Shown one piece after another: positions 13,614-34,051 of a stretch of 64,000 bases of DNA. Position 1 is the first letter of the stretch; each line of letters starts with the position of its first letter. The notes below the pieces were generated by a model that ran no database searches, had not been told where the DNA came from, and was given only the letters and a program-made list of their open reading frames with translations. The stretch is from Candidatus Krumholzibacteriia bacterium (GTDB lineage: Bacteria; Krumholzibacteriota; Krumholzibacteriia; JAJRXK01). Where the stretch lies: assembly GCA_029932915.1 (NCBI GenBank), contig JAOZPE010000001.1, positions 32,222 through 96,221 of the forward strand, given 5' to 3'. The translations under genes and the position numbers were made by a program.

Positions 13614-13773
13614 GGATTCTCCCCCGATGCCGGTCGGCCGATGGGCTCAGGCTTGCCCCCGGCCCCTGTCGGTACTTCCTTGGGGCTCTGCCGCAGGACA
13701 GTATCGGCGCCGCCGGGGCCGGGCGTCAACGCCGCGACCCCCGGATGCGGTCTTTTCACAGGAGCAGGACAGG

Positions 13774-15003: not shown

Positions 15004-15089
15004 GACCGTTCCACCGGCGACCGATGAACACAGCGGCGTGACCATGGGGGCCACGCCGCCCGATCTTCCCCATCCGCTCGGCAGCGACG

Positions 15090-15548
15090 ATGAAACTGAT
15101 CGAGTACACCAGCGAGGAACTCTGTCTGGCCGGCCTGCGCGTGCCGGACAAGGAGAGCTGTCTCGATCGCATGTGCGCGCGGCTGGAGGAAGCCGGTCGC
15201 CTGAAGGAGCGGTCTGCGCTCCATCGGGCTCTTTTGGAGCGTGAGAAGGTGGAATCGACGGGCATCGGAGGCGGGATCGCCCTTCCCCATGCCCGCTGTG
15301 AGGACTTCGACGGCCACGCGGTGGCCATCGCCCATCTGGCCGAGCCCATCGACTACGGCGCTCCCGATGGGAGGCCGGTCGACCTGGTCTTCCTGTTGGC
15401 CGGATCCAGCCGCCGTCCCGGGCAGCAGCTTCGGGTCCTGGCCCGGATCTCCACCCTGGTGAGGATCGACTCCTTCCTGGCCGAGCTGCGGGCGGCGTCC
15501 ACCCCGGAGGCGATGTGCCGGGCCCTGCGGAAGGCCGAGGGGCTCTAG
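15090..15548 (+). CDS. ptsN: PTS EIIA(Ntr)-type regulatory protein (PtsN paralog 1)
   Basis: The EIIA type-2 active-site motif is present (ESTGIGGGIALPHAR). Confidence 0.7.
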   Translation: MKLIEYTSEELCLAGLRVPDKESCLDRMCARLEEAGRLKERSALHRALLEREKVESTGIGGGIALPHARCEDFDGHAVAIAHLAEPIDYGAPDGRPVDLVFLLAGSSRRPGQQLRVLARISTLVRIDSFLAELRAASTPEAMCRALRKAEGL

Positions 15549-15845
15549 GGCCCCGAGGGCGCAAGGAGATTCTCCGCCACTTGCTGCAGGTCGGGGGCAC
15601 TCCGGTGTTCCGGCCGGGTTGGGGTCCGTTCCCGGCGGCCGTCCTTTCCCCTTCCCCCCGGCGGGGCCATTTGCTAGTGTGGATTTCCTTTCCCATCCCG
15701 CGGATCGGTTTCGGCCTGCATTTCCGGTGGAGTCCTTGCCTCGAGGACGGCCGCCGGGGTGAGGTCGCTCTCCCGGAATTCCATCGGCGGCCTCCCTCCA
15801 TGGGCCGCCAGCCAAGGAGCTGGACCCTTGCGACGCACTTTCGGA

Positions 15846-18680
15846 ATGGTCACCACGACGACTGCTTCGACTCTTTCGATCCTTCTCTTCCTTCTTGTGC
15901 TGAGCCCCAACCTCGCGTCGGCCCAACCGACGGTGACCGATGTGCAGACCCCCGATCTGCTCTCGGTGCTGATCACCTTCTCCGAGGCGATCGATCCGAC
16001 GACGGGCAACACGGTTGCCAACTACCTCATCTACGAAAAGGATGACATCGGCAATCGTCCGCCCATCTCCTCGGCGGTCACTTCCGGCTCGCAGGTGACG
16101 CTCGCCCTGGATGCCGCGCTCACCGACGGCATGGTCTATTCGCTGCGTGTGCAGGGTGTGGAGAACACCTCGGGCGAGGTGATGGAGACGCAGATCGTCG
16201 ACTTCACCGCGTCGGGCCCGGACATCACGCCACCGGAGGTCACCGGGGCCTCGGCCGTCGACGACCAGACGGTGCGGATCGACTTCAACGAGGCCATCGA
16301 TGCGGGCAGCGCCGCCGACCCCGGTTCCTATCTGTTGTATCCCACCGCGCAGCCGGGCAGTCCCTTGACCATCACCGCCATCGGCACGGCCACCTCCAGC
16401 GTGACCCTCACCCTCGGTTCCTCCCTGAGCGACGGTGTCGAGTACACGGTGGAGGTCAGTGACGTCGAGGACCTCGCAGGCAACGCCATCGAGGACAACA
16501 ACACCGCCACCTTCACCTACACCGCCTCGTCTGCCGCCACCCCCATCGCCGACATCCAGGCCGATCCGGATTCGTGGGAAGGTCAGGTGGTGACCGTCGA
16601 GGGTGTGGTCTACATCCCCAGTGATTACCGGGGGACGGTCGTCAGCGGCTTCATCCAGGACGAGTCGGGCCGCGGCATCAACCTCTTCGGAACGGGGATG
16701 GATGTGGCGGCCCTGCAGACCGTGGGCAACCGGGTGCGGGTCACCGGCACGGTCACCTCGTACTTCACCACGGTGGAGATCCAGGACCCCACCGAGGTCA
16801 CCCTCATCAGCAGCGGCAATCCCCGTCCCACGCCGGTGCAGTTGGGAACGGGAGCGGCAGCGTCTACCCAGTGGGAAGGCACTTTCATTGAAGTGAGCGG
16901 GTCCATTCAGAGTCAGGTGGTTGCCAATGGTGCCGTCAACTACACCGTCAATGATGGGAGCGGTCCGATCATTGTGCGGGTGGTCGACACCCTGGGCGCG
17001 CCGAGCTTCTCCAACGGCACCACCATCACCGCCCGGGGAGCGGGCGCTCAGTACCAGAGCGACTACCAGGTGCTGGTGGGCCTGGCCAGCGATGTCTTCG
17101 AGGGCAACGGAGGGGACACGACGCCACCGCAGGTGATCAGCGCGAGTGGCTCGAACGAGACCTCGATCGTGGTGAATTTCAACGAGGCGCTCGATCCCAC
17201 CACCGCCCAGGTCTCGGCCAACTACGAGGTATATGAGAGTTCAGCCCCGTCGAACACCCTCACGGTGACTGCCGCTTCGCTGACGGGCAGCCGGGTCACC
17301 CTCACCCTGGCCTCGGCCATGAACGAGGGCACCTCCTACACGGTGACGGTTTCCAATGTCGAGGACCTCGCTGGCAATGTCATCGCCGGGAACAACACCG
17401 CGACCTTCACCTATACCCCATCCTCGGGGGCCACACCCATCGCCGACATCCAGGCCGATCCAGAGGCTTACGAGGGTCAAGAGGTCACCGTCGAAGGCGT
17501 GGTCTACATTCCGACGAACTACCGGGGAACGACCACCAGCGGCTTCATCCAGGATGAGTCCGGCCGCGGGATCAACCTCTTCGGCCGGGGCATGGACGTC
17601 CCTGCCCTGACGACGGTGGGCAACCGGGTGCGGGTGACCGGAACCATCGACATCTATTTCACCACGGTGGAGCTCACCAGCCCCACCGAGGTCACGCTCA
17701 TCAGCAGCGGCACGCGGATCCCGCCCACCCAGTTGAGCACCGGGGCGGCGGCGAACCACCAGTGGGAGGGCACCTTCATCGAGGTCTCCGGACCCATCCA
17801 GAGCCAGGCCGTCGCCGGCACCGCCATCAACTACACGGTGGACGACGGAAGCGGCCCGATCATCGTGCGGGTGGTGGACACCCTGGGTGCGCCGAGCTTC
17901 GACAACGGGACCACCATCACCGCTCGGGGAGCGGGTGGCCAGTACCAGAGTGACTTCCAGGTGCTGGTGGGCCTGGTCAGCGACATCTTCGAGGGCACCG
18001 GCGGCGACCTCACGCCGCCGCGGATCGAACGGGCCAGCCTGGAGACCGCGACCACGGTGATCATCGACTTCAGTGAGGGAGTCGAAGCCACTTCGGCCAC
18101 CACCGCCGACAACTACGAGGTGTTCCGGACCAACAGTCCCGGCGAGACGGCCGGGGTCACCGGCGTGGAGTTCGTCTCGGGCAGCAACAACCGCGTCCGT
18201 CTGCAGCTCGACCGCAGCGTGAGTCTGGACGAAGGCTGGTCGGTGCGGGTGCGCAACGTGGCCGATCTCAACGGCAACGCCATTTCGCCGAGCGGGGTGA
18301 CGGCGCGGCTCGAGGCCCTTCTCAAGGAAGAGATCGACCTGGAGGGACCGCCCTTCACCTTCCTGCCTCGCGACGGGGAACGCTATCCGTTGACCATCAA
18401 TCTCACCTCGGAGCTGGTTGACCACAACGCCGAGGTGGTCCTGAGGATCTTCAACATGAACGGGGCCCTGGTACGGACGCTCTATGACAGCCGGGTGGCT
18501 CCATTGAGTTCCGTCTTCAGGGACAACCGGGCGACCATCGAATGGGACGGTACCGATGACTACAAGGAATGGGTGCCGGCCGGAGCATACGTGGCGCACC
18601 TGCAGGTGCGCGAGGCTGGAGGTAGCGGTTCCAATGAGGTCCATATTCCCGTGGTCGTGGCCACGCGCCTGGATCGATAG
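15846..18680 (+). CDS. Large secreted surface protein: triplicated bacterial Ig-like (SbsA/Big_5-type) plus OB-fold module, with a C-terminal T9SS/FlgD-Ig-like sorting domain
   Basis: It has a signal peptide (MVTTTTASTLSILLFLLVLSPNLASA); the track ORF starts at 15759. A ~298-aa module is repeated, each copy containing TPPxV...NYxVY Ig-like domains and an OB-fold (WEGQVVTVEGVVYIP..GFIQDESGRGINLFG..VGNRVRVTG). The C-terminal ~80 aa (LRIFNMNGALVRTLYD...IEWDGTDD...GAYVAHLQV) fit the Por_Secre_tail/FlgD_ig pattern. Confidence 0.8.
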   Translation: MVTTTTASTLSILLFLLVLSPNLASAQPTVTDVQTPDLLSVLITFSEAIDPTTGNTVANYLIYEKDDIGNRPPISSAVTSGSQVTLALDAALTDGMVYSLRVQGVENTSGEVMETQIVDFTASGPDITPPEVTGASAVDDQTVRIDFNEAIDAGSAADPGSYLLYPTAQPGSPLTITAIGTATSSVTLTLGSSLSDGVEYTVEVSDVEDLAGNAIEDNNTATFTYTASSAATPIADIQADPDSWEGQVVTVEGVVYIPSDYRGTVVSGFIQDESGRGINLFGTGMDVAALQTVGNRVRVTGTVTSYFTTVEIQDPTEVTLISSGNPRPTPVQLGTGAAASTQWEGTFIEVSGSIQSQVVANGAVNYTVNDGSGPIIVRVVDTLGAPSFSNGTTITARGAGAQYQSDYQVLVGLASDVFEGNGGDTTPPQVISASGSNETSIVVNFNEALDPTTAQVSANYEVYESSAPSNTLTVTAASLTGSRVTLTLASAMNEGTSYTVTVSNVEDLAGNVIAGNNTATFTYTPSSGATPIADIQADPEAYEGQEVTVEGVVYIPTNYRGTTTSGFIQDESGRGINLFGRGMDVPALTTVGNRVRVTGTIDIYFTTVELTSPTEVTLISSGTRIPPTQLSTGAAANHQWEGTFIEVSGPIQSQAVAGTAINYTVDDGSGPIIVRVVDTLGAPSFDNGTTITARGAGGQYQSDFQVLVGLVSDIFEGTGGDLTPPRIERASLETATTVIIDFSEGVEATSATTADNYEVFRTNSPGETAGVTGVEFVSGSNNRVRLQLDRSVSLDEGWSVRVRNVADLNGNAISPSGVTARLEALLKEEIDLEGPPFTFLPRDGERYPLTINLTSELVDHNAEVVLRIFNMNGALVRTLYDSRVAPLSSVFRDNRATIEWDGTDDYKEWVPAGAYVAHLQVREAGGSGSNEVHIPVVVATRLDR
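16227..18011 (+). repeat. Intragenic tandem duplication: two ~891-894-bp units plus a partial third, encoding the Ig-Ig-OB module
   Basis: Near-identical DNA stretches recur, for example cccatcgccgacatccaggccgatcc at ~16540 and ~17440, and ggcttcatccaggacgagtc at ~16650 and ~17545. Protein units start at TPPEVTG (16227), TPPQVIS (17121) and TPPRIER (18012). Confidence 0.85.
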
Positions 18681-18693
18681 GAGCAGAAGACCA

Positions 18694-19611
18694 ATGCATA
18701 CGAAAAGAACCTCGATTCTCCTCCTGCTTCTCTTCGGTCTCCTGCTGCTCGGCAGCAGTGCAAGAGCCGCGTTCGACGACATCGCGGTGAGTCCCCGGGC
18801 CCGCGCCATGGGCGAGGCCTACGTGGCCGTCGGCGGCGATGCCTGGAGCTGGTACCACAATCCGGCTCTCCTGCCGTGGATCACTTCACCGGAGATCGCC
18901 GCGGCGGGCACCGAACCCAACGGCGGTGGTTACAACTCCCTGGGGACCATCGGCGGCATCCTTCCGGTGAAGGGTGGCTGGACGGGTCTGGCGGTCGGCC
19001 TGCGCCGCTACGGCGTCGACTACCGGGATGTCTCCCTCCTCACCGAGTACACGATCTCGATCGCGCAGGGCATCCAGTTGTTCAAGGACGACGCTTCGGG
19101 CGCTTCCTTCGGCTGGGCCCTCAACTTCTACAACCTCGATCTGGGCCAGAGCATCGGTCTGGCCGGGGACGGCACCGACGGCATCGACCCGGGCAACGCG
19201 TGGGCGATGGGCCTCGATCTCTCCGCGGTGGTTCAGGTGTGGGACCGCACCAAGGTGGGTTTCAACGCCAAGAACATCAACAGCCCGACCATCGGCGACG
19301 AGAACGAGGAGTTGCTGCAGCAGTTCAGCGTGGGGCTGAGCTATGAGCCGTACGAGGCGGTCATCACCGCGCTGGACATCCGCAGCCGGCCGGGGGAGGA
19401 CTTCCGTCTCCATGCGGGCGCCGAGTTCGGGGTGCTGGAGGTGCTCGATCTGCGAGCGGGTCTGGAGACCGATCCCGACAAACTCACCGCGGGTTTCGGC
19501 GTGCACCTGTACGGCGTCACCCTCGACTATGCCTTCTCCACCGGCGGCGGCGTTCTCGAGTCGACGCATCAGTTCGGCTTGAGCTATCGCTTCTCGGGAG
19601 GGGGGGAGTAG
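18694..19611 (+). CDS. Outer-membrane beta-barrel protein, FadL/PorV-like family
   Basis: It has a signal peptide (MHTKRTSILLLLLFGLLLLGSSARA). The N-terminal motif SPRARAMGEAYVAVGGDAWSWYHNPALL matches the FadL/PorV-type signature (ARAxxMGGA...D...YNPA). The protein has alternating amphipathic strands and ends in ..YRFSGGGE. It sits 13 bp after the giant gene. Confidence 0.6.
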   Translation: MHTKRTSILLLLLFGLLLLGSSARAAFDDIAVSPRARAMGEAYVAVGGDAWSWYHNPALLPWITSPEIAAAGTEPNGGGYNSLGTIGGILPVKGGWTGLAVGLRRYGVDYRDVSLLTEYTISIAQGIQLFKDDASGASFGWALNFYNLDLGQSIGLAGDGTDGIDPGNAWAMGLDLSAVVQVWDRTKVGFNAKNINSPTIGDENEELLQQFSVGLSYEPYEAVITALDIRSRPGEDFRLHAGAEFGVLEVLDLRAGLETDPDKLTAGFGVHLYGVTLDYAFSTGGGVLESTHQFGLSYRFSGGGE

Positions 19612-19612
19612 C

Positions 19613-22168
19613 GTGTACGCTCCGCGCAAACAACTGGGGCGCGGAATTCTCGTGGCACTGGCCTTCAGCCTGTTGCTCGCGGCGCCGGTCCGCGCTCAAT
19701 ACGAGCAGGGAGACTCCCGGCGAGAGGCCATCGAGCCGAGGCAGCTCAAGGGCGAGGTGGACCTGGCCGGAGGGAAGCTCGATCTGAATCGCGCGACCCG
19801 CGATCAGATCCGTTCCCTTCCCATTCCTCCTGAAGTCGCCGACGCCATCTGGGAATACCGCACCTATCGCAGTTACTTCAGCTCCATCTACGATCTGAGC
19901 AAGGTCGAGGGCGTCACGCCCGAGATGATCAAGGAGCTGATCCCCCTGGTGGCCACCATGCCGCCGGAGAAGCAGGAAGCCTGGGTACGTCGCTTCGACG
20001 CCTCGTTCCGGGCGATGCAGCGATTCCTGAGCCGTGAAGGGGCCAGCGAGGAGCTCGCCGACGAATACCGCGACCTCCTGCTGGAACCGCGCAACATCAA
20101 CGATCTGTCCATCTATGCCCTGGAGAGCTACCAGAACGTCTCCCCGGTGGATGCCACCGCCATCCTCAAGGCGCGCAAGAGGTCGGGCGGCATCCAGAAC
20201 CAGCGGCAACTGCGCAGCGTCGACGGCCTGACCTACTGGGCCTACCGCAACCTGCGGGACTACGTCGTCTACGAACCGCCGGCGGGGGAGATGAAGCTGC
20301 ACGGTGGGGCCCAGGTGCAGGTGTACAACACCCCGTACATGCTCGACGACCGGGACATCCTCACCGAGGACTACGTGGGGGCCCCATCCCGCGACTTCGA
20401 CGAGGGGACGCCCTACGGGATCAAGAATCTGGACAGCGCGAATCCGGCCATCCTGAGCAAGTTGAAGCTGCGGCTGGGCAACCAGTGGAAGGCCGGCATG
20501 AGCACCTTCCGCAATGTCGGTGAGCGCAACGTGGCCGAGACGCTCAAGGGCTTCATCGAGTGGCACAACCCGCGGGCGAAGTCCTACCGCCTGGACAAGT
20601 TCGTGCTGGGCAATTTCCGGATCGCCTTCGGACAGGGCCTGGTGATGGACAACACCGACTACTTCCTCAGTCGCAAGACCGGCACGGGCTTCAACAAGCG
20701 TCCACGGGGCTTGATCGGTGACATGAGCCGATCCTACGAGTTCGCCCTGCGCGGCGCGGCCGCAGAAGCCGCCCTGGGGAATCTGCACGTCGTCGGTTTC
20801 TACAGCAACACCGACAAGGACGGCATCCTCAACCTCGACGAGAACGGCAACGCGGTGAGCATCAACAAGTACGTGGTGGGCAAGCCGCGGTTCGAGAACA
20901 GTGAATACGAGTTGATGAACACCGCCATCCGGCGGGGCGCCTTCGACGAGGAACTCTACGGTGGTGTTCTGCACTATCAGTTCGTGCCGGGAACCTTCGT
21001 GGGAATCTCGGGCTACGAGGCCCGCCACGACCTTCCCTGGGATCCGAAGGTCTCCACCCTGGTGACCGAGGTAGGTCGCTTGGAGGCTCGGGACAACGAA
21101 CTGTTCAACGCCTACGATTCGACCCAACTGGGCAACTTCCGACGCGTTCTGGGCGCTGAATTCCAGACCGTGATCAGCAACGTCGCCCTGGCCGGCGAGT
21201 ATGCCAAGCTCGACTCGAACCCCACCGGCGGCATCTTCTCCAATGCTCCCGACGCCATGGTGTTCACCGGCTACACCCAGTGGTCGAACTTCAACATCTT
21301 CGCGCTCTATCGTGACTACGATGTGGGCTTCGACAATCCCTATGCCCGGCCGTTCGGGCAGGACAACCGTTACGAGCAGACCTTGCTCGGCGATCCCTTC
21401 CGTTTGAATTCACCTCTGTACAGTTGGCTGGAGTCGACCACGCCGCAGACCAAGGCCGAGCAGGGGATCTTCCTGCAGACGCGCTACCGGATCAGCCGTC
21501 AGCTCACGATCTCCGGCCTGGAATTCGATCAGTGGAAGCGGAAGGCCGACGGACAGAGCCAGCATCGCTACACCTTGCGTCTGGAGTACGCGCCGATCTG
21601 GCCGCTGCGTTTCCGTCTGCGTGAACGCTACAGCGACCGGGCACCCGAGGAGCTGAGCGACAACCGGCGTTTCAAGAGCTGGGATACGCGGCTCGAGCTG
21701 CGGGCGCGGCTGAGCGGCTACGACGAATTGCGCTTGCTCTACAGCAATACCAACACCCAGTTCGCGCCGCGGCCCCGTCTGGGAGGACCGGCCGATCCGG
21801 ACGGCAGCAACTTCACCCCGCTGGCGCAGGAAGCCGCCCCGGGCCAGGCCATCCAGGCCATGCTGGTGCACAACGTCAACGATCGTCTCCAGTTCACGTT
21901 CAGCACCGAGCTCTACGAGGGCTTCCTCTGGAACTTCGAAGACAACGAGTTCGTCGTGGTCGACGGCAACGGCATGCGCAACTGGTTCCTCATCCAGAGC
22001 CGACTCGATGACCACTTCCTCGTTCGATTCAAGATGACCAACGATCGTCAGCGGACCCGTGACAACCTGGAGATCCGCGATTATGCCAATTCCACCCCCA
22101 GCGAGTTGCGCGCGGGCGACAAGCGTCAGTACACCGCTTTCCGCCTCCAGCTCGACTACAACTTCTAG
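19613..22168 (+). CDS. Outer-membrane beta-barrel protein with two N-terminal ComEA-like helix-hairpin-helix DNA-binding motifs
   Basis: It has a signal peptide (LVALAFSLLLAAPVRA). HhH motifs are present (DLNRATRDQIRSLPIPPEVADAI, and DLSIYALESYQNVSPVDATAILKARKRSGGIQNQRQL). A ~650-aa Tyr/Gly-rich region follows with alternating strands, and the C-terminus is ...QLDYNF (aromatic terminal residue typical of OMPs). The track start is GTG. Confidence 0.6.
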   Translation: MYAPRKQLGRGILVALAFSLLLAAPVRAQYEQGDSRREAIEPRQLKGEVDLAGGKLDLNRATRDQIRSLPIPPEVADAIWEYRTYRSYFSSIYDLSKVEGVTPEMIKELIPLVATMPPEKQEAWVRRFDASFRAMQRFLSREGASEELADEYRDLLLEPRNINDLSIYALESYQNVSPVDATAILKARKRSGGIQNQRQLRSVDGLTYWAYRNLRDYVVYEPPAGEMKLHGGAQVQVYNTPYMLDDRDILTEDYVGAPSRDFDEGTPYGIKNLDSANPAILSKLKLRLGNQWKAGMSTFRNVGERNVAETLKGFIEWHNPRAKSYRLDKFVLGNFRIAFGQGLVMDNTDYFLSRKTGTGFNKRPRGLIGDMSRSYEFALRGAAAEAALGNLHVVGFYSNTDKDGILNLDENGNAVSINKYVVGKPRFENSEYELMNTAIRRGAFDEELYGGVLHYQFVPGTFVGISGYEARHDLPWDPKVSTLVTEVGRLEARDNELFNAYDSTQLGNFRRVLGAEFQTVISNVALAGEYAKLDSNPTGGIFSNAPDAMVFTGYTQWSNFNIFALYRDYDVGFDNPYARPFGQDNRYEQTLLGDPFRLNSPLYSWLESTTPQTKAEQGIFLQTRYRISRQLTISGLEFDQWKRKADGQSQHRYTLRLEYAPIWPLRFRLRERYSDRAPEELSDNRRFKSWDTRLELRARLSGYDELRLLYSNTNTQFAPRPRLGGPADPDGSNFTPLAQEAAPGQAIQAMLVHNVNDRLQFTFSTELYEGFLWNFEDNEFVVVDGNGMRNWFLIQSRLDDHFLVRFKMTNDRQRTRDNLEIRDYANSTPSELRAGDKRQYTAFRLQLDYNF

Positions 22169-22178
22169 GGAGTATCCC

Positions 22179-23543
22179 ATGCGTGGCAGTGTTTGCAGAA
22201 GCATACGGATCCTGACCCTCGTCCTGGCGGCGGCGTCGCTTCTCGCCTCCCCCGCGCGCGCATTCACCACTCTGGATGCGGCATACGGTACGCCATGGGA
22301 TGCGGAGAACCCGCGCACGGCGGCCATGGGTTCGGTCGGGGCGGCTCTGTACCAGGGGGCGGGAAACCTCGTCTCGAATCCGGCGATGCTCGCCTACATG
22401 GACGGCCGCATCCTGGTGGAGCTCAACGGGGGATTTCTCCAGGCCAACGAGGACCGCTATCAGCCCCTGTACAATTCCTTCGACTCGTACGTGACCGATA
22501 CCGTCATCGCGAGCAACCGCAACAGCTACGGGCAACTGCAGGGCGGTGTCCTGTTCAGCCTTTCCCGCGAGCATGCGATGAGCTTCGGGATCGGCGTGTT
22601 CGACCGCTACATCTTCGACTACGACTACAGTGAGGAGATCCGCGATCCCTCTCCCTTCGTCGACACCCGCGACGCGGTCATCCAGTTGCGTCAGTACCAT
22701 ATCGAGGGAAGACTCCGCTCGATCACCGCGGGCTGGGGGATGGAAGTGATTCCGCGCCTGTCGCTGGGTCTGAGCGTGAACTACTACCTCGGAAAGTTGC
22801 AGCACCGGGTGGCGACCTCGACCACGCCTACCTACGAGAACACCTTCCTGAGCGATCCGGGCCCGGCGGCCTTCGACCACGATCTCGACGGCTGGAGTGT
22901 CGCGCTGGGTCTGGAGGGAAGGGTTTCCGACCGCCTCGATCTCGGAGTGAACTTCGAGAGCGGCTTCACCGTCGAGGGGGCCATCACCTCCATGGATTCG
23001 ACGATCGGGACCTGGGTGCCCTACGACCGCGAGGAGACCGTGCTCGCCGTGGGTGGGGAGGATGTGAAGATCAAGTATCCTTCGACCCTGCGGGCGGGGA
23101 TGACCTTCCATCCGCGCAACCAGCTCAAGACCACCTTCTCGTTCGACCTGGTCCGCCGCTTCTGGGAGGGCGTTTCCAGCGATAGCTACCGTACGGCGGC
23201 CTTTGGCGGCGGATACACGCTGCGGGACACCTGGGACGTCCGGGTGGGTCTGGAGCATGTCTTCTACAACAAGGTGCCGGCCCGCTTCGGTTTTCGTTAT
23301 CTTGAGAACTACGCCGACCCCGAGTCACAGCGGTCGATCTTCTCGGCGGGGACGGGTTGGTCGACGGCGGGTCTTACCCTGGAAGCGACGGTGCAGTACC
23401 ACCGGCAGACCACCCGCCAGGACTATCTCTTCGACCGCACCCTGGAGTGGACGGACCGTCCGCCGGACGTTCCCGACGACGGGCTCTCCAAAGTGGAGGA
23501 TGGAACGGTGACCCTCCTGCTGGGGGTTTCCCGGCGCTTCTAG
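22179..23543 (+). CDS. Outer-membrane beta-barrel protein, FadL/PorV-like family (second copy)
   Basis: It has a signal peptide (ILTLVLAAASLLASPARA). The N-terminal motif is ENPRTAAMGSVGAALYQGAGNLVSNPAML. The C-terminus is ...LLLGVSRRF (terminal Phe). Confidence 0.6.
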   Translation: MRGSVCRSIRILTLVLAAASLLASPARAFTTLDAAYGTPWDAENPRTAAMGSVGAALYQGAGNLVSNPAMLAYMDGRILVELNGGFLQANEDRYQPLYNSFDSYVTDTVIASNRNSYGQLQGGVLFSLSREHAMSFGIGVFDRYIFDYDYSEEIRDPSPFVDTRDAVIQLRQYHIEGRLRSITAGWGMEVIPRLSLGLSVNYYLGKLQHRVATSTTPTYENTFLSDPGPAAFDHDLDGWSVALGLEGRVSDRLDLGVNFESGFTVEGAITSMDSTIGTWVPYDREETVLAVGGEDVKIKYPSTLRAGMTFHPRNQLKTTFSFDLVRRFWEGVSSDSYRTAAFGGGYTLRDTWDVRVGLEHVFYNKVPARFGFRYLENYADPESQRSIFSAGTGWSTAGLTLEATVQYHRQTTRQDYLFDRTLEWTDRPPDVPDDGLSKVEDGTVTLLLGVSRRF

Positions 23544-23555
23544 CCTCTGGAAGGG

Positions 23556-25010
23556 ATGACGCTCTTGGAGCGCGGAATTCGTTCGTTCATCGGCCGTGCC
23601 GCCGTTGTCTCTGTGACGGCGGCGCTGCTTCTGCTGGGCGCCTGCTCGTCGAAGGCACCGGTGGAGGGAGTGATCCTTCCACCCAGCGATTCGATCAGCG
23701 TGGTCGATCGCAGCGTACTGTGGCACACCGACGAGCCGGCCCGGGGTCTCGTGCGCTACGGTCTCGATCGTGGGCATCTCGATCACGTCGCCTATCCCGC
23801 CGCGGCCGCCCGTGAGGACCGCTCCTTCGTCAAGGAACACCGGGTGACCCTGCTGGACGTGCAGGCCGGCCGGACCATCTACTACCAGGTGGGGGTGGAG
23901 ACGAGTCTCAGCGGCTGCCGTTTCACCGCCATCGATTCCTTCGTCTCGCAGCTGGGTCCGGCGCCGGGCGTGCTGACGTCGACCATGGTCCACATCGGCT
24001 TCGGTGATGCGCACGTGTTGACCATGCCCACCAACGGACGCCATGTGCTCATCGACGCCGGTACGCGCGAAGCGGCCGTCTCGGTGCGTCAGTATCTGCT
24101 GGAGCATGGCATCGACGCCTTCAGCGGCATGCTCGCCACCCACGTGCACATCGATCACATCGGAGGCATCCTCGGCTACGATCGCGGTGGCATCCTGGCG
24201 AGTCACCCGCCTTCGATCTTCTACGATTCGGCACGCAAGGACGTGGGCTCGGAGAAGTACGCCTACAGCGAGGTGCAGTCGATGATCGCCGAGGAGAACG
24301 TCGACGAAGCCGTCCTGCATCGCTTCGATACCTCATCGAGCGTGGCGGCGCTGCAATGGGATCCCGAGGTCGAGGTGACGGTGTTGAACAGTGGCACTCC
24401 CGACGACTACGTCCCGGACGGCTACGAGGGTACGGACATCAACAACGAGTCGATCGTGTTGCTCATCGCCTACGGCGACGTCCGCTTCGTCATCGGCGGC
24501 GACGCCGAGCAGGAGGCCGAGGCCAGCATGCTGGCGGCCTTCGCTCCCGCGGACCTGGAAGTGCAGTACTACAAGGTGCAGCACCATGGTCTCTCCGATG
24601 CCTCGAGCACGGCGTGGGTGAACACGTTGAGGCCGCGGGTGGCGTTCATCCCCAACACGGCGTGGTCGTGGGACGGAGACCTCGATGGGGCCATCAGCCA
24701 GACCACGGGACGGCTGGAGGCCATCGGAGCGCAGATCTATGTCATCGACGACGTGCCGATGATCGGTGAGCCCCGCTCGATGGGCATCCAGCACAACATC
24801 ACCTTCGCCACCGACGGTGTCAGCTATGAGGTGCGGGTGGAGACGGCACAACAGACGGCACCGCACAAGATGGCCTCCACCGCCTCGTGTGTCCGCGGCG
24901 ATCCCGACCTGCAGAATCTCTTTCCTCTCCATGACCACGAGGGCGATTCCGGCCTCGACAGGGTGAAGACCGACTCTCCGCCGCCGACGGCGGACAGCTC
25001 CCAGGAGTAG
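23556..25010 (+). CDS. Lipoprotein with purple-acid-phosphatase-N/Fn3-like domain fused to a ComEC-type metallo-beta-lactamase-fold domain (putative nuclease)
   Basis: It has a lipobox (LLLLGACSS). The ComEC/Rec2-type MBL pattern is present: VHIGFGDAHVL....GRHVLIDAGT...AFSGMLATHVHIDHIGG and NESIVLLIAYGDVRFVIGGDAE...YYKVQHHGLSDAS (compare vGqGDa..LID.G / lilTH.d.DHiGG / lKvgHHGS..S). Confidence 0.75.
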   Translation: MTLLERGIRSFIGRAAVVSVTAALLLLGACSSKAPVEGVILPPSDSISVVDRSVLWHTDEPARGLVRYGLDRGHLDHVAYPAAAAREDRSFVKEHRVTLLDVQAGRTIYYQVGVETSLSGCRFTAIDSFVSQLGPAPGVLTSTMVHIGFGDAHVLTMPTNGRHVLIDAGTREAAVSVRQYLLEHGIDAFSGMLATHVHIDHIGGILGYDRGGILASHPPSIFYDSARKDVGSEKYAYSEVQSMIAEENVDEAVLHRFDTSSSVAALQWDPEVEVTVLNSGTPDDYVPDGYEGTDINNESIVLLIAYGDVRFVIGGDAEQEAEASMLAAFAPADLEVQYYKVQHHGLSDASSTAWVNTLRPRVAFIPNTAWSWDGDLDGAISQTTGRLEAIGAQIYVIDDVPMIGEPRSMGIQHNITFATDGVSYEVRVETAQQTAPHKMASTASCVRGDPDLQNLFPLHDHEGDSGLDRVKTDSPPPTADSSQE

Positions 25011-25014
25011 AGCC

Positions 25015-26697
25015 ATGCGCGCAGTTTCCGCTCTCGCTATCTTGTTCATTCTCGCCGCGACGGGTCTGGCCGTCTCCGATGCTTCGGCCGGAGAGACCGT
25101 GCGCCTTCATCTCATCTGGACCAACGACATCCATGGCCACGTGGGCAATGAGGAAGCGCGCTTCATGAATCCCGAGTTCCCCCCGCCTCTGGGTGGGGGG
25201 GCCTCGGCGGCGGCCTACGTGCAGAAGGTGCGCGCCGCGTGTGAGAAGGACCCCGACTCGGACGTGCTGCTGCTCGACGCCGGCGATACCTGGCAGGGCG
25301 CCCCGGTGGGCACGCTCAGTGCGGGCCGGGTCATGGAAGCTTACTTCGATGCCATGCAGTACGATGCGGTCACCGTCGGCAACCACGAGTTCGACAAGGG
25401 CCTCGACGTTCCCATCCGCATGTCACAGGCCATGCGGCAGAAGTTCGTCTGCGCAAACATCTACAAAGAGGGCACGGAGGAAATGGTCGACTGGACCGAG
25501 CCCTACCGGGTGGTGGAGAAGGCCGGCCTGCGCATCGGCATCGTCGGGGCGGTCACTCCTTCCACGAAGTCGATGGCCTTCGCCGAGAACGTGGCCGGGA
25601 TCGATTTCGGCCCGATTGCCCCGGTGCTGGAGAAGTACCGTGACATCCTTCTGGAGCGCGAACACGTCGATCTGGTGGTGGCTCTGATTCACGAGGGTTT
25701 GCCCTACAACCCGGACGAAGGCTGGGAAGATCTGGTGCGACGGGTGAAGGAGGGCGTCGATCTGCGGCTGCATGCGCGCAGTGCCATGGAGATCGCCCAC
25801 GTGGTCCACGGGATCCCCATCTTCGTCGGCGGCCACACCCACCGCGGCTACCGCAAGCCGTGGATCGATCCGGTGACCCAGGCCATGGTCTTCGAGACCT
25901 TCGGCAACGGCTCATCGGTGGGACACGTGATCATCCTCATCGACCGCCCCACCGACCAGGTGGTCGGTTACGAGAGCCCCCGGCGCGACGGCACCCTGGT
26001 GACCCTGTTCGAGGACGAGTGGTGGCCGGATGAGAAGATGGCGGCCGAACTCGAACCCTATATCCACGAAGCCCGGGCCGGTCTGGACGAGACGGTGGGG
26101 CGCTCGGCGGTCGAATTGAGCCGCCGCGGCGGACCTCTCTCGCGGATGGGGATCCTCGTGACCAGCGCCATGCTCGAGGCCACCGGGGCCGATTTCGCCT
26201 TCTCCAACACCGGCGGCCTGCGCAGTGATCTGCCTCCGGGCCGGATCACCCTGGGCGACCTCATCCGGGTCCTGCCCTTCGGCAACGCCCTGGCCACCGT
26301 CGAGATGGACGGAGCCATGATCCGCAAGATCTTCGAACGCAAGAGCGGGCGTCGCAGCAGCGGCATCGCCTTCTCCGGGGTGAAGGTGGTCGTCGATCCG
26401 GACGCCCCGCAGGGACGCCGGGTCCTCGAGCTGACCCTGCTCGACGGCACGCCCATCGTGCCGGGGCGGCGCTACCTCGTGGCGACCTCGGACTTCCTCA
26501 TGGAGGGCAACAGCGGCCTGGACTTCCTGGCCGAGATCCCGCCGGATCAGGTCAACTACACCGGCATCCTCACCCGCGACGCCCTGGCCGAATACCTGCG
26601 CAAGCACAGCCCGGTGGCGCCTCATGCGGACGACCGGTGGAGGGAGAAGGTGGGGGGGACGCCCGCCGACTATCTGCAGACCCCGGCCGTCCAGTAG
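25015..26697 (+). CDS. Secreted bifunctional metallophosphatase/5'-nucleotidase (UshA-like)
   Basis: It has a signal peptide and calcineurin-like motifs (LIWTNDIHGHV, DAGDTWQG, GNHEFD, GGHTH). A C-terminal 5'-nucleotidase substrate domain is present (FSNTGGLRSDL..GNAL). Confidence 0.85.
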   Translation: MRAVSALAILFILAATGLAVSDASAGETVRLHLIWTNDIHGHVGNEEARFMNPEFPPPLGGGASAAAYVQKVRAACEKDPDSDVLLLDAGDTWQGAPVGTLSAGRVMEAYFDAMQYDAVTVGNHEFDKGLDVPIRMSQAMRQKFVCANIYKEGTEEMVDWTEPYRVVEKAGLRIGIVGAVTPSTKSMAFAENVAGIDFGPIAPVLEKYRDILLEREHVDLVVALIHEGLPYNPDEGWEDLVRRVKEGVDLRLHARSAMEIAHVVHGIPIFVGGHTHRGYRKPWIDPVTQAMVFETFGNGSSVGHVIILIDRPTDQVVGYESPRRDGTLVTLFEDEWWPDEKMAAELEPYIHEARAGLDETVGRSAVELSRRGGPLSRMGILVTSAMLEATGADFAFSNTGGLRSDLPPGRITLGDLIRVLPFGNALATVEMDGAMIRKIFERKSGRRSSGIAFSGVKVVVDPDAPQGRRVLELTLLDGTPIVPGRRYLVATSDFLMEGNSGLDFLAEIPPDQVNYTGILTRDALAEYLRKHSPVAPHADDRWREKVGGTPADYLQTPAVQ

Positions 26698-26762
26698 GCT
26701 CCGCCGATCCGGCCCCTCCCTCGAAGGCTCCCGCCGTCTCGCGGGCTGCGGGCACGTCGTCG

Positions 26763-26810
26763 TTTTGCAAGTCATCGCAGCTTTTGCAAGCCTTCCTCCG
26801 CTTGCGCAAA
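26763..26810. promoter_or_regulatory. Triple TTTTGCAAG motif (two direct copies 19 bp apart plus one inverted, imperfect copy CTTGCGCAAA) upstream of the AAA+ gene
   Basis: The copies lie at 26763-71 and 26782-90 (direct) and 26801-10 (inverted). They sit in the only AT-richer part of the 300-bp intergenic gap. Confidence 0.4.
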
Positions 26811-27004
26811 CGTGCCAATCGGGGCCGAGGAGGTCCATTCCCGCCCCGGACGGTGCGAGGCAAGCGGCCGCCGGCTTCCCCGGCCTCGCTCTCGTGAGTT
26901 CCCCTGCGTTCCCATGATTCCCCGTAGAGGAGCGCGCTTACGGGCGTGGTGGCCTGGAGCCGGCCGGTGGCCGGTCACGGGTTGGGAGGGGGGACGCCGG
27001 AGCC

Positions 27005-28405: not shown

Positions 28406-28429
28406 ACCTCAGGCCGCGGATACGTCGAA

Positions 28430-28457
28430 GGGGAGACCCGCGCAGCCGGATCTCCCC
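28430..28457. terminator. Weak GC-rich stem-loop (GGGGAGA-N14-TCTCCCC) between the convergent AAA+ and bactofilin genes
   Basis: It has a 7-bp stem and a 14-nt loop with no U-tract. Confidence 0.25.
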
Positions 28458-28557
28458 TCATCCCCATCTCGATACGGTTTCGTCGCCGGCGCCGCCCTCA
28501 CCGCGTTCCGCCCCCGGTGCCTCGACGCTGGGGTCGACACGGCGGACAGTCGGCCGC

Positions 28558-29079: not shown

Positions 29080-29398
29080 GCTGCCTCCAGGCTTGCGTTC
29101 CGCTGCACAGCGGAGTGAGGGGATCGGGCGGCGAGGGGGCGATGAGGCCACCTCCACGGCGAGCGGGGAGAACCGTACCGGGGACTTCCTCCCGGCCGGC
29201 ATATCCTCCGCGGGCCGCCATCGCAGTCCAAGCGGGAGCAATGCCGGTGCCTTTGCTCCGGCCAGGGGAGAACTCGTTGGAAATCAATGGCTTATGCCGA
29301 TGTGACCCCGGCCGGCCCGGGCGGCACGGATGGTCAGATTCTGACCGCTTTGGGCCCACCACGGTGGAAGGGGACCAGGGACGGCGGGGGGCTCGGAA

Positions 29399-30213: not shown

Positions 30214-30363
30214 GGAAGGGGCCGGACGAGGCCGCAGTCGGCTCTCCGGCGGGTCATGAGATGTACGCGTGAGCGCAAACCAAGCTAGCAGATCGAGGTG
30301 TCCTAGACAAGGACGCACGTCTGGTGTTCCCTGGATCCCGTCAGCAGAGGGGGGATCGATCGT

Positions 30364-34033: not shown

Positions 34034-34051
34034 ATCTTCTTCCTCTCGAGA

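What the first reader, a model, noticed from the sequence alone, without database searches (positions are those of the whole stretch)
15846..26697. Six-gene operon resembling a surface-exposed extracellular-DNA capture, degradation and nucleotide-salvage machine built from competence-type parts
Six plus-strand genes are separated by only 1-13 bp. They encode (1) a giant secreted Ig/OB-fold repeat protein with a T9SS/FlgD-Ig-type C-terminal domain, (2) a PorV/FadL-like OMP, and (3) an OMP carrying two ComEA-like HhH DNA-binding motifs. The rest are (4) a second PorV/FadL-like OMP, (5) a lipoprotein with a ComEC-type MBL (putative nuclease) domain and (6) a UshA-like 5'-nucleotidase. ComEA HhH and ComEC MBL domains normally act in the periplasm or inner membrane of the DNA-uptake apparatus. 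Here both appear in outer-membrane or lipoprotein contexts together with OB-folds and a nucleotidase. That arrangement suggests binding eDNA at the surface, threading or holding it at an OM barrel, cleaving it and dephosphorylating the products for uptake. I know of no described system with this composition.
Basis: partly seen in the sequence, partly recalled or inferred. Interest (0 to 1): 0.88.

Follow-up and report, generated by a model that had tools for sequence, protein, structure and literature searches.

The report
Outer-membrane DNA capture and breakdown operon
An uncultured Krumholzibacteriota bacterium carries a six-gene operon, conserved across three candidate phyla, that most likely captures extracellular nucleic acid at the cell surface, brings it through a previously undescribed outer-membrane barrel and breaks it down to nucleosides and phosphate. 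It does the same job as the DNA-utilization loci recently found in Bacteroides but uses different parts.

Summary
Six co-directional genes (15846-26697) lie 1-13 bp apart with the stated domains.

- **Conservation:** in 80 related genome loci the order cargo, PorV-like, HhH-barrel, FadL-like, 5'-nucleotidase is invariant (76/76, 71/71, 68/68, 56/56 where the contig reaches). The ComEC-type MBL lipoprotein is accessory (11/56).
- **Independent support:** in a WOR-3 relative (31% GC) the nuclease slot holds two NucT-like PLD nucleases instead.
- **Cargo:** it carries tandem OB folds of the ExeM/NucH type (AF2 pLDDT 93). Most relatives carry lamin-tail domains instead.
- **MBL:** its nearest relatives are ComEC nuclease domains, with the metal motifs intact.

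- **Topology:** OMP topology and signal-peptide types place the HhH domain, the MBL nuclease and the nucleotidase in the periplasm, not on the surface.
- **HhH motifs:** the first hairpin of each unit lacks the canonical glycines, so DNA binding is unproven.
- **Prior work:** an analogous system already exists in Bacteroidota (ddbABCDEF and the Riemerella transformation genes), although its transporter is TonB-dependent and unrelated.

The roughly 620-residue barrel has no Pfam family and no close PDB fold. Verdict: a new variant of a known kind. Interest 0.7.

The parts
15846..18680 (+). g1: secreted 944-aa surface cargo. Signal peptide, 2 Big_5, tandem-OB module, Big_5, tandem-OB module, Big_5, then a conserved C-terminal sorting-type domain.
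   Evidence: Big_5 at 3.9e-33. NF033681 ExeM/NucH OB region at 5.4e-8.
16536..17108 (+). g1 tandem-OB module 1 (aa 231-421), of the nucleic-acid-binding type.
17430..17999 (+). g1 tandem-OB module 2 (aa 529-718), 81% identical to module 1 in the MAFFT alignment.
18348..18677 (+). g1 C-terminal domain (about aa 835-944). It is FlgD-Ig-like or T9SS-CTD-like and is the only part conserved in all cargo proteins.
   Evidence: tblastn finds this roughly 100-aa tail in 71/71 loci. Invariant residues in alignment A2. PorU-tail similarity 2e-4. The WOR-3 orthologue hits FlgD_ig at 1.6e-6 and Por_Secre_tail at 5.5e-3.
18694..19611 (+). g2: 305-aa PorV/PorQ-like (FadL-fold) outer-membrane barrel. Putative holder of the g1 C-terminal domain and partner of g3.
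   Evidence: NF033709 at 5e-15. Immediately upstream of the HhH-barrel gene in 76/76 loci. Also paired with it in the WOR-3 loci L085, L086 and L089 and in L088.
19613..22168 (+). g3: 851-aa outer-membrane protein. A periplasmic N-terminal double ComEA-like HhH domain is fused to a large beta-barrel. It is the central conserved component.
19775..19951 (+). g3 HhH unit 1 (aa 55-113). Hairpins read LPIPPEVA and VEGVTPE.
20087..20272 (+). g3 HhH unit 2 (aa 159-220). Hairpins read QNVSPVDA and VDGLTYWAY. It carries a conserved Arg-rich patch: R188, R198, R201, R212, R215.
   Evidence: Median pI 8.8 across the family. The double-HhH layout aligns with the N-terminus of human EEPD1 (9yi2).
20297..22165 (+). 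g3 beta-barrel (aa 229-851), about 24-26 strands. No Pfam family, no plug and no TonB box.
22179..23543 (+). g4: 454-aa FadL/PorV-like outer-membrane barrel.
   Evidence: Toluene_X 33.5 bits (gathering score 29.7), PorV_fam 1.3e-9, weak BamG match at 50 bits against a cut-off of 250. Downstream of g3 in 68/68 loci.
23556..25010 (+). g5: 484-aa lipoprotein with an FN3-like domain and a ComEC-type metallo-beta-lactamase domain. Putative nuclease and an accessory member of the operon.
   Evidence: Present in 11/56 loci, always between g4 and g6.
23973..24653 (+). g5 MBL domain (aa 140-366) with the motifs HVHIDH, NNES and HHG.
   Evidence: phmmer against the PDB: ComEC MBL domains 9ic4_A at 1.2e-10 and 30bt_A at 2.5e-9. 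The motifs are conserved in all listed orthologues except HHG, which is missing in P0174.
25015..26697 (+). g6: 560-aa periplasmic UshA-family 5'-nucleotidase (metallophosphoesterase).
   Evidence: 5_nucleotid_C at 4.8e-34 and Metallophos at 5e-7. The motifs DIHG, GD, GNHEFD and GGHTH are visible in the sequence. Present in 56/56 loci.

Best explanation
This is an outer-membrane nucleic-acid foraging apparatus. It is a functional analogue of the Bacteroidales DNA-utilization locus, built from different parts.

**Proposed steps**
1. g1 is exported and displayed on the cell surface through its conserved C-terminal domain, held by the PorV-like barrel g2 (inferred by analogy with T9SS PorV/PorQ). 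Its tandem OB folds bind extracellular DNA or RNA. In most relatives lamin-tail domains take the place of the OB folds. The fold is shown; binding is inferred.
2. The polymer, or large fragments of it, passes through the roughly 24-26-strand barrel of g3. The N-terminal double HhH domain of g3 sits on the periplasmic side and holds or ratchets the incoming strand, as soluble ComEA does (inferred).
3. In the periplasm the strand is cut by an operon-encoded nuclease. This is the ComEC-type MBL lipoprotein g5 in about 20% of lineages and NucT-like PLD enzymes in WOR-3. Elsewhere the nuclease is presumably encoded outside the operon.
4. The UshA-like 5'-nucleotidase g6 removes the phosphate, giving nucleosides and Pi for inner-membrane uptake (family assignment shown, substrate inferred).
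5. g4, a second FadL/PorV-like barrel, is either a further anchor or a channel for small products (unknown).
For: **Operon structure and conservation**
- Structure and domains.
- The gene order is invariant in 56-76 of 56-76 assessable loci from Krumholzibacteriota and Eisenbacteria MAGs.
- The same operon occurs in a WOR-3 genome at 31% GC (L086). It has an ExeM/NucH-OB cargo (8.7e-19) with a FlgD_ig tail, a PorV-like gene, the HhH-barrel, a 386-aa signal-peptide protein ending ...IKF with no family hit and no detectable similarity to g4, two secreted single-HKD NucT-like PLD proteins and a UshA-like phosphoesterase.
- Locus L088 has a cargo with a C-terminal domain, a PorV-like gene, a TPR-HhH-barrel, a g4-like gene, a 5'-nucleotidase and two LTD proteins.
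- Locus L089 has an ExeM/NucH-OB cargo, a PorV-like gene and the HhH-barrel.

**Cargo**
- The g1 OB module is modelled with high confidence, and all its top fold matches are nucleic-acid-binding OB or HIN domains. These include 4JBM, the structure used to argue that DdbD binds DNA (PMC12478041).
- The two-OB region is essential for ExeM nuclease activity. LTDs characteristically accompany MBL, EEP and calcineurin-like phosphoesterases (PMC6085458).

**Nuclease and HhH domain**
- The nearest relatives of g5 are ComEC MBL domains. Those domains are endonucleases and 5' exonucleases in vitro (PMC13539106).
- The catalytic motifs are conserved in g5 orthologues.
Against: - No activity or binding has been measured. 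Every organism concerned is an uncultured MAG.
- The first hairpin of each HhH unit lacks the canonical glycines throughout the family: LPIPxxVA and QNVSPVDA instead of LPGIG.
- 80% of loci encode no recognisable nuclease in the operon. No nuclease domain is detectable in 36 cargo proteins.
- The function of LTDs, which make up the majority cargo type, is unknown. In ExeM the LTD is dispensable.
- Distant WOR-3 paralogues of the HhH-barrel sit in contexts with no nucleic-acid link: L085 has only the PorV-like partner, L087 lies beside glycosyltransferases and DUF4139, and L090 lies beside a peptidase M1.
- The operon sits in a conserved housekeeping neighbourhood (Mrp, PtsN, HslU-like), which would also suit a constitutive envelope function.
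Confidence: 0.55

Rival explanations
1. It performs the outer-membrane step of a pilus-independent natural-transformation pathway. The surface OB cargo, PorV-like barrel and HhH-barrel would import intact DNA into the periplasm for ComEC/ComF/DprA encoded elsewhere, as proposed for Riemerella anatipestifer. Catabolism would be secondary.
For: In R. anatipestifer, transformation needs a surface DUF5689 OB protein, an outer-membrane barrel and a periplasmic HhH protein (PMC8459023). That system is homologous to the catabolic ddb locus (PMC12478041), so one architecture can serve either purpose. In L089 the trio of OB cargo, PorV-like gene and HhH-barrel occurs without a nucleotidase. g5 derives from the ComEC nuclease domain.
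Against: A 5'-nucleotidase is co-operonic in 56/56 loci of this clade, and WOR-3 adds two nucleases. Both point to destruction of the DNA, not its preservation. No ComEC channel, ComF or DprA gene lies in the window or in the flanks examined.
Confidence: 0.15
2. It is a dedicated display and anchoring module for a giant surface protein (an adhesin or S-layer-like protein), or a general large-pore outer-membrane channel family. The HhH-like domain would be a periplasmic structural or protein-interaction domain and not a DNA binder. The nucleotidase would be a co-transcribed but mechanistically separate scavenging enzyme.
For: - g2 and g4 belong to the PorV/PorQ/BamG kind of FadL-fold barrels. 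In the FCB superphylum these act as holders of surface proteins, not as transporters (PMC12611786; T9SS literature listed).
- Big_5 repeats resemble S-layer protein SbsC.
- The HhH hairpin glycines are missing.
- Paralogues occur in unrelated contexts and as a minimal PorV-like plus HhH-barrel pair.
- The chromosomal context is housekeeping and conserved across the phylum.
- The best Foldseek hits include Deinococcus SlpA, a giant barrel with a periplasmic tethering domain.
Against: This does not explain why the variable cargo keeps drawing on domains typical of extracellular nucleases (ExeM/NucH-type OB, LTD) in three phyla. Nor does it explain why two unrelated nuclease families and a nucleotidase recur in the same operon. 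The HHH_3 homology is statistically solid.
Confidence: 0.2
3. It anchors extracellular DNA as a biofilm or matrix component. Surface OB/LTD repeats and the barrel would tether eDNA to the cell, with the nuclease and nucleotidase remodelling the matrix.
For: ExeM and Xds-type nucleases with the same accessory domains modulate eDNA-dependent biofilms (PMC6085458; titles listed). The cargo is multivalent, with repeated OB or LTD modules.
Against: The periplasmic placement of the HhH domain, the MBL lipoprotein and the nucleotidase does not fit an extracellular matrix role. The universal 5'-nucleotidase is more simply explained by salvage.
Confidence: 0.07

Closest known systems
Bacteroidales DNA-utilization locus ddbABCDEF (Sharan et al., PNAS 2025, PMC12478041)
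   Same: A six-gene, PUL-like operon that combines a surface tandem-OB (HIN-like, DUF5689) DNA-binding protein, an outer-membrane barrel transporter and secreted or periplasmic nucleases. The nuclease content varies between subtypes, and some subtypes lack a secreted nuclease. Both occur within the FCB superphylum.
   Different: - The ddb transporter DdbC is a TonB-dependent SusC-like barrel with a lipoprotein partner. Here the barrel has no plug, TonB box or CarboxypepD_reg domain, and it carries a fused double HhH domain.
- The surface protein here is a cargo with a T9SS-type C-terminal domain, next to PorV-like barrels, and not a lipoprotein.
- The nucleases belong to other families (ComEC-type MBL or NucT-type PLD).
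- A 5'-nucleotidase is an invariant member here.
- No sequence homology of g3 to DdbC was detected.
Riemerella anatipestifer pilus-independent transformation genes RA0C_RS04920/04915/02645 (Huang et al. 2021, PMC8459023)
   Same: A surface DUF5689 OB protein, an outer-membrane barrel and a periplasmic helix-hairpin-helix protein are together required to bring DNA across the outer membrane without a type IV pilus.
   Different: In Riemerella the HhH protein is a separate periplasmic protein encoded elsewhere, and the barrel resembles a TonB-dependent receptor. Here HhH and barrel are one polypeptide, and the operon carries degradative enzymes.
ComEA / ComEC of the canonical competence machinery
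   Same: The g3 N-domain is homologous to the ComEA HHH_3 domain. The g5 MBL domain is most similar to the ComEC C-terminal nuclease domain, with metal-binding motifs and the NNxS and HHG signatures conserved. Both probably act in the periplasm, as in competence.
   Different: There is no ComEC channel (Competence, PF03772) and no DUF4131/OB domain. g5 is a lipoprotein with an FN3-like domain. g3 is an 851-aa OMP. Its first HhH hairpins lack the glycines. Scores are below the NCBIfam cut-offs (40.7 against 152, and 49.7 against 190).
ExeM / Xds / NucH extracellular nucleases (Shewanella, Vibrio; PMC6085458) and B. subtilis YhcR
   Same: They share the accessory modules: a two-OB 'YhcR-like' region and, in most cargo orthologues, lamin-tail domains. 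YhcR also couples OB folds to a 5'-nucleotidase module (from my own knowledge).
   Different: The cargo proteins lack the catalytic EEP or SNase domain. The hydrolases are separate genes.
T9SS PorV/PorQ attachment barrels and the SprA-PorV pairing; BamG of the Bacteroidota BAM complex (PMC12611786)
   Same: 14-strand FadL-fold barrels encoded next to, and probably docking onto, a large barrel or a cargo with a C-terminal domain. FadL-fold barrels are used as holders of surface proteins in the FCB superphylum.
   Different: g2 and g4 score below the PorV/PorQ and BamG cut-offs. g3 is unrelated to SprA in size and sequence. Whether these genomes have a T9SS core could not be tested.
'DNA-degradation loci' of Ca. 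Izemoplasmatales (Wasmund et al. 2021, PMC8289736)
   Same: Clustered extracellular nucleases, 5'-nucleotidases, transporters and a large protein with OB, nuclease and LTD domains, interpreted as serving eDNA catabolism.
   Different: Those organisms are monoderm, so there is no outer-membrane component. Their large protein carries its own nuclease domain.
Helicobacter pylori NucT (PLD-family outer-membrane-associated nuclease)
   Same: The WOR-3 version of the operon carries two secreted single-HKD proteins whose best named matches include NucT (about 1e-14 to 1e-12). NucT serves purine salvage from eDNA and transformation (from my own knowledge).
   Different: These proteins are absent from the window itself and score below the NucT cut-offs.

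Membership tests
ComEA (HHH_3 / TIGR01259) | Significant match to the HHH_3 double helix-hairpin-helix domain | tested here: met
ComEA (HHH_3 / TIGR01259) | Reaches the curated ComEA family score | tested here: not met
   TIGR01259 scores 40.7 bits against a cut-off of 152.35. TIGR00426 scores 28 against 53.1.
ComEA (HHH_3 / TIGR01259) | Canonical G-h-G hairpins (LPGIG, VxGIG) that contact the DNA backbone | tested here: not met
   The first hairpin of each unit reads LPIPxxVA or QNVSPVDA. The second keeps only G-h-T. This holds in 25 aligned members and in the WOR-3 relatives.
ComEA (HHH_3 / TIGR01259) | DNA binding | not testable with these tools
   Needs EMSA or a comparable assay. Net charge is uninformative, because a ComEA fragment is equally acidic.
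ComEC/Rec2 (TIGR00361) | MBL nuclease domain of the ComEC clade with metal-binding motifs | tested here: met
   The best PDB and database relatives beyond the orthologues are ComEC MBL domains. HxHxDH and NN[ED]S are conserved in all listed orthologues, and HHG in all but P0174.
ComEC/Rec2 (TIGR00361) | Polytopic Competence channel domain (PF03772) and N-terminal OB/DUF4131 | tested here: not met
   Neither domain is present in g5. The TIGR00361 score is 49.7 against a cut-off of 190.
Bacteroidales ddb DNA-utilization locus | TonB-dependent DdbC-type transporter as the anchor gene | tested here: not met
Bacteroidales ddb DNA-utilization locus | Surface DUF5689 (tandem OB, HIN-like) DNA-binding partner | tested here: inconclusive
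ExeM/NucH extracellular endonuclease (NF033681) | N-terminal OB region together with an EEP catalytic domain | tested here: not met
   Only model positions 16-111 of 546 match (32 bits against a cut-off of 300). There is no Exo_endo_phos domain.
T9SS cargo (C-terminal sorting domain) | Por_Secre_tail / TIGR04183 or type B CTD match at the C-terminus | tested here: inconclusive
   The window g1 shows only PorU-tail similarity (2e-4). Orthologues hit FlgD_ig at 1.6e-6 and Por_Secre_tail at 5.5e-3, below the cut-off. The tail is conserved in 71/71 loci.
T9SS cargo (C-terminal sorting domain) | T9SS core (SprA, PorK/L/M/N, PorU) present in the genome | not testable with these tools
   Only 22-kb loci around the operon could be fetched. 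None of the core genes is in the 64-kb window.
PorV/PorQ family (NF033709) | Reaches the family score | tested here: not met
   g2 scores 55.9 bits and g4 38.1 bits against a cut-off of 90. The similarity is significant but below threshold.
FadL/Toluene_X (PF03349) | Reaches the Pfam gathering score | tested here: met
   g4 scores 33.5 bits against 29.7, covering model positions 30-381 of 421.
BamG (NF053685) | Reaches the equivalog score | tested here: not met
   g4 scores 50 bits against a cut-off of 250. This is generic FadL-fold similarity only.
UshA-family 5'-nucleotidase | Metallophos N-domain and 5_nucleotid_C domain with catalytic motifs | tested here: met
   PF02872 scores 118 bits and PF00149 30.7 bits, both above their gathering scores. 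The motifs DIHG, GD, GNHEFD and GGHTH are in the sequence. Equivalog cut-offs are not reached (UshA 165 against 600), so substrate specificity stays open.
TonB-dependent transporter | Plug domain and TonB box | tested here: not met
   No Plug or TonB_dep_Rec hit. The N-terminal region is helical HhH.

The most novel reading that the evidence does not exclude
The HhH-barrel, together with its PorV-like partner, is a new class of outer-membrane DNA translocon. It would be a pilus-independent and TonB-independent pore whose covalently fused ComEA-like domain captures incoming DNA on the periplasmic side. Import would be driven by binding and by processive periplasmic nucleolysis, not by pilus retraction or proton-motive force. 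If so, whole candidate phyla (Krumholzibacteriota, Eisenbacteria, WOR-3) would have a previously unknown route for DNA entry across the outer membrane, usable for food and possibly for transformation.
Probability: 0.3. Interest if true: 0.9.

Novelty: new variant of a known kind. Interest (0 to 1): 0.7.

Why it matters
**Biogeochemistry.** Extracellular DNA is a major P, N and C pool in soils and sediments. The uncultured FCB-superphylum phyla that carry this operon have no known mechanism for using it.

**Evolution of DNA uptake.** The operon suggests that DNA-utilization loci arose at least twice around unrelated outer-membrane transporters. It also links competence-type domains (ComEA HhH, ComEC MBL) to a catabolic, outer-membrane-tethered role.

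**A testable new protein family.**
- The family is about 800 aa long, with roughly 145 clusters at 50% identity scoring E<=1e-30.
- It has no Pfam model for the barrel and no close PDB fold.
- It is a concrete candidate for a TonB- and pilus-independent DNA pore.
- A few recombinant assays could test that candidate directly.

Tried and rejected
- **AlphaFold-database fold search (afdb50).** It was not available, so structural relatives among predicted models could not be surveyed.
- **Promoter and terminator scan of 15400-27100.** It found no sigma-70-like promoter and one terminator-like site inside g4. Both counts are below the shuffle expectation, so the scan was uninformative. The intergenic sequences showed nothing I could interpret.
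- **Rfam scan of the whole window.** No match.
- **'The HhH domain is too acidic to bind DNA'.** I considered this and rejected it. The ComEA DNA-binding fragment has the same pI (4.76), and HhH unit 2 is basic in most members.
- **g4 as BamG.** Rejected: 50 bits against a cut-off of 250.
- **g3 as an LptD equivalent.** I considered this because of the roughly 26 strands and the lptC/A/B-rpoN neighbourhood in WOR-3. Rejected: there is no OstA/LptD_N domain, and the LptD structures score no better than generic barrels.
- **g3 as a TonB-dependent transporter or a usher.** Only generic barrel similarity was found.
- **Homologue search with the g1 OB module.** It returned only 12 proteins because of the word-index limit. 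It therefore did not give the hoped-for survey of domain fusions with nucleases.
- **Hidden nuclease domains in 36 cargo proteins.** None found at E<=1e-3.

Full report
**1.

The region 15846-26697 carries six plus-strand genes in the high-GC3 frame (GC3 0.81-0.86). They are separated by 13, 1, 10, 12 and 4 bp. About 300 bp of non-coding DNA lies upstream and 220-300 bp downstream.

The flanking genes are housekeeping. Upstream are Mrp/ApbC and a PtsN-type EIIA. Downstream are an HslU/ClpX-like AAA+ protein, a bactofilin, RsgA and a heptosyltransferase. The rest of the 64-kb window is ordinary chromosome with no Rfam match.

- g1 (944 aa): four Big_5 stretches and two OB regions matching the N-terminal OB part of the ExeM/NucH nuclease model.
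- g2: PorV/PorQ-like, 5e-15.
- g3: two HHH_3 stretches (55 bits against a gathering score of 27) followed by about 620 residues with no Pfam hit, ending in ...DYNF.
- g4: FadL/Toluene_X above the gathering score.
- g5: a lipoprotein (LLGAC) whose best NCBIfam model is ComEC_Rec2.
- g6: Metallophos plus 5_nucleotid_C, with visible DIHG, GD, GNHEFD and GGHTH motifs.

**2. The host, and how conserved the operon is**

The HhH-barrel protein has more than 200 full-length relatives of 820-890 aa. All come from metagenome-assembled genomes.

A scan of one genome per GTDB species found it in 123 species. The 80 loci fetched are labelled Krumholzibacteriota or Krumholzibacteriia, Eisenbacteria, or carry generic or doubtful names. 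The closest are 72-87% identical, so the window is from a Krumholzibacteriota bacterium.

tblastn of the six window proteins against these loci gave these counts, wherever the contig reaches far enough:
- PorV-like gene directly upstream of the HhH-barrel gene: 76/76.
- Gene ending in the same roughly 100-aa C-terminal domain as g1, upstream of that: 71/71.
- g4 homologue downstream: 68/68.
- g6 homologue downstream: 56/56.

The MBL gene g5 is present in only 11 of 56 loci, always between g4 and g6. In the other loci g4 and g6 are 43-605 bp apart. The conserved core is therefore five genes and the MBL nuclease is a recurrent accessory.

**3. The cargo protein**

g1 consists of a signal peptide, two Big_5 domains, a 190-aa module, Big_5, a second copy of the module (81% identical in the alignment), Big_5, and the C-terminal domain.

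In Shewanella ExeM the equivalent two-OB region is essential for nuclease activity.

Only the C-terminal tail is conserved across the cargo genes of other loci. The cargo genes range from 700 to 2200 aa. Of 36 scanned, 32 carry lamin-tail domains, 8 carry Big_5 and only 2 carry a recognisable OB fold. None carries a known nuclease domain.

Lamin-tail domains are the other accessory module of ExeM/Xds-type nucleases. In bacteria they typically accompany MBL, EEP and calcineurin-like phosphoesterases. The last family is the one g6 belongs to, and g5 belongs to the first. The window's OB version is therefore a minority form, but both forms draw on the accessory domains of extracellular nucleases.

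**4. The HhH-barrel**

The AF2 model (pLDDT 73, pTM 0.71) has a helical N-domain (residues 55-217) and about 24-26 beta-strands from residue 229 to the C-terminus.

The barrel has no close solved relative.
- The Foldseek query-normalised TM-score is at most 0.33.
- The matches are porins, FimD/PapC ushers, TonB-dependent receptors, MtrB and Deinococcus SlpA.
- There is no plug or TonB box.

Two caveats matter.
- In all 25 aligned members and in the distant WOR-3 relatives, the first hairpin of each unit reads LPIPxxVA or QNVSPVDA instead of LPGIG. The second keeps only G-h-T. The fold is ComEA-like, but the hallmark backbone-contacting glycines are half lost.
- Bacterial OMP barrels have both termini in the periplasm (established knowledge). 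The HhH domain should therefore be periplasmic, not surface-exposed.

Net charge does not decide the question. HhH unit 2 is basic with conserved arginines, and a genuine ComEA fragment is as acidic as unit 1.

**5. The enzymes**

*g5.* About 56 close orthologues are known (40-100% identity). The next-best database hits are genuine ComEC proteins carrying the Competence channel domain, and PGAP already names one orthologue 'ComEC/Rec2 family'.

Against the PDB the top hits are ComEC MBL domains (9ic4 at 1.2e-10, 30bt at 2.5e-9), well ahead of B3 beta-lactamases. The ComEC-specific NNxS and K-V-x-HHG signatures are shared with them. HxHxDH, NN[ED]S and HHG are essentially invariant in the orthologues.

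The ComEC MBL domain is an endonuclease and 5' exonuclease in vitro (PMC13539106).

All orthologues keep the lipobox cysteine followed by S/A-K-K, with no acidic export signal of the Bacteroidota type. This suggests a periplasm-facing lipoprotein. That is an inference, because the sorting rules in these phyla are unknown.

*g6.* It has a plain type I signal peptide, so it is probably periplasmic like UshA.

**6. Independent support from distant relatives**

A profile search of 1.84 billion representative proteins found 145 clusters at E<=1e-30. These include 767-806-aa members, and those with source names are from candidate division WOR-3.

*Locus L086 (WOR-3, 31% GC against 65% here).* The operon contains, in order:
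1. A 657-aa secreted protein with ExeM/NucH-type OB folds (8.7e-19), a near-threshold DUF5689 match and a FlgD_ig/Por_Secre_tail end. It is homologous to g1 at 5.6e-26.
2. A PorV-like barrel.
3. The HhH-barrel.
4. A 386-aa signal-peptide protein ending ...IKF (OMP-like terminus), with no family hit.
5. Two secreted single-HKD PLD proteins. Their best named matches include the nuclease NucT, and their HxK(x)4D motifs are intact.
6. A UshA-like phosphoesterase.

An unrelated nuclease family thus occupies the slot that the ComEC-type MBL fills in the window.

*Other loci.*
- L088 has a cargo with a C-terminal domain, a PorV-like gene, a TPR-HhH-barrel of 1251 aa, a g4 homologue, a 5'-nucleotidase and two LTD proteins.
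- L089 has an ExeM/NucH-OB cargo, a PorV-like gene and the HhH-barrel.
- Other WOR-3 paralogues stand with only the PorV-like partner (L085), or next to glycosyltransferases and DUF4139 (L087), or next to a peptidase M1 (L090).

The PorV-like plus HhH-barrel pair is therefore the minimal module. The family may not be restricted to nucleic-acid substrates.

**7. Most likely mechanism**

1. Capture outside by the displayed OB or LTD cargo, held by the PorV-like barrel.
2. Passage of the polymer or large fragments through the big barrel.
3. Retention by the fused periplasmic HhH domain.
4. Periplasmic cleavage, either by the ComEC-type MBL, by NucT-type enzymes, or by nucleases encoded elsewhere.
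5. Dephosphorylation by the 5'-nucleotidase.

What is shown: gene order, conservation, domain and fold assignments, and motif conservation. What is inferred: localisation, binding, passage through g3 rather than g4, and the substrate. I put this explanation at about 0.55.

The rivals are:
- an outer-membrane step of pilus-independent transformation (0.15);
- a surface-protein display module or general channel in which the HhH-like domain is structural (0.2);
- eDNA matrix anchoring (0.07).

**8. Comparison with what is known**

Bacteroides thetaiotaomicron ddbABCDEF encodes three nucleases, a TonB-dependent transporter and a surface DUF5689 tandem-OB protein. It is required for depletion of exogenous DNA (PMC12478041).

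It is homologous to the Riemerella anatipestifer genes that, together with a periplasmic HhH protein, are essential for pilus-independent transformation (PMC8459023).

The present operon shares that logic: a surface OB receptor, an outer-membrane barrel, an HhH element and nucleases. It fails the defining membership feature, because it has no DdbC-type TonB-dependent transporter. It differs in four ways:
- the HhH domain is fused to a novel barrel;
- it uses PorV/FadL-fold partners and a T9SS-type cargo tail;
- its nucleases belong to other families;
- it has an invariant 5'-nucleotidase.

It is also not a ComEA, a ComEC or an ExeM/NucH member, because curated cut-offs and key domains are not met (see the membership table). 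I found no paper describing it. Searches on Krumholzibacteriota, Eisenbacteria, WOR-3, HhH and outer membrane returned nothing relevant.

**9. Verdict**

- The 'surface-exposed' topology, the centrality of the MBL gene and the claim of no precedent need correcting.
- DNA binding by the HhH domain remains unproven.
- It is best filed as a new variant of the recently recognised outer-membrane DNA-utilization and DNA-uptake loci, built around an undescribed HhH-fused barrel family confined to uncultured FCB-superphylum phyla.
- Interest 0.7.

Noticed in passing
window 13297-15548 and 26918-32501; L086 2849-7125: The operon sits in a conserved housekeeping neighbourhood. In Krumholzibacteriota it lies between Mrp/ApbC plus PtsN (EIIA-Ntr) and an HslU-like AAA+ protein, bactofilin, a second EIIA, RsgA and a heptosyltransferase. 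In WOR-3 it directly follows lptC/lptA-like genes, lptB and rpoN. It therefore appears tied to the rpoN-ptsN/LPS-transport cluster across phyla, which could hint at sigma-54/PtsN (nitrogen or phosphate) control.
   Followed up: partly
P0374-P0379, Krumholzibacteriia metagenome contigs: Stand-alone secreted proteins of 234-248 aa consist of a single tandem-OB module 50-60% identical to the g1 module. A seventh hit, P0380 (142 aa, 62% identical), is called 'predicted extracellular nuclease' by JGI. These may be free DNA-binding proteins related to the cargo.
   Followed up: no
L085, L087, L090 (WOR-3 and related MAGs): Distant paralogues of the HhH-barrel occur without any nucleic-acid-related neighbour. 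One has only a PorV-like partner, one lies after glycosyltransferases and before DUF4139 and a PorZ-like beta-propeller, and one lies 4 bp upstream of a 941-aa peptidase M1. The barrel family may serve other polymers too.
   Followed up: partly
L088 2420-6175: A 1251-aa variant of the HhH-barrel carries a roughly 430-aa N-terminal TPR extension. It is followed by a g4 homologue, a 5'-nucleotidase and two small LTD proteins.
   Followed up: partly
L039, L043, L049 (all contigs of assembly CAYMCR01): One MAG carries three copies of the cargo, PorV-like, HhH-barrel arrangement. One copy has a 2219-aa cargo. This suggests paralogous expansion with different cargoes.
   Followed up: no
Cargo genes of 17 of 36 loci, e.g. 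L029 6528-8966 aa 352-404: Many LTD-type cargo proteins also hit CBM_56, a beta-1,3-glucan-binding module (best 4e-22). Whether this reflects carbohydrate binding or just a related beta-sandwich is unknown.
   Followed up: no
window 13297-15003: The Mrp/ApbC ORF is 568 aa here against 360-372 aa in relatives (L001, L003). Its 5' part overlaps a glycosyltransferase gene on the opposite strand (12852-13646). The true start is probably further downstream.
   Followed up: no
window 32531-37897 (- strand): Two adjacent large TPR-repeat proteins (506 aa and 1281 aa) of unknown role. The larger has a weak match to the Slam (surface lipoprotein assembly modulator) TPR region.
   Followed up: no
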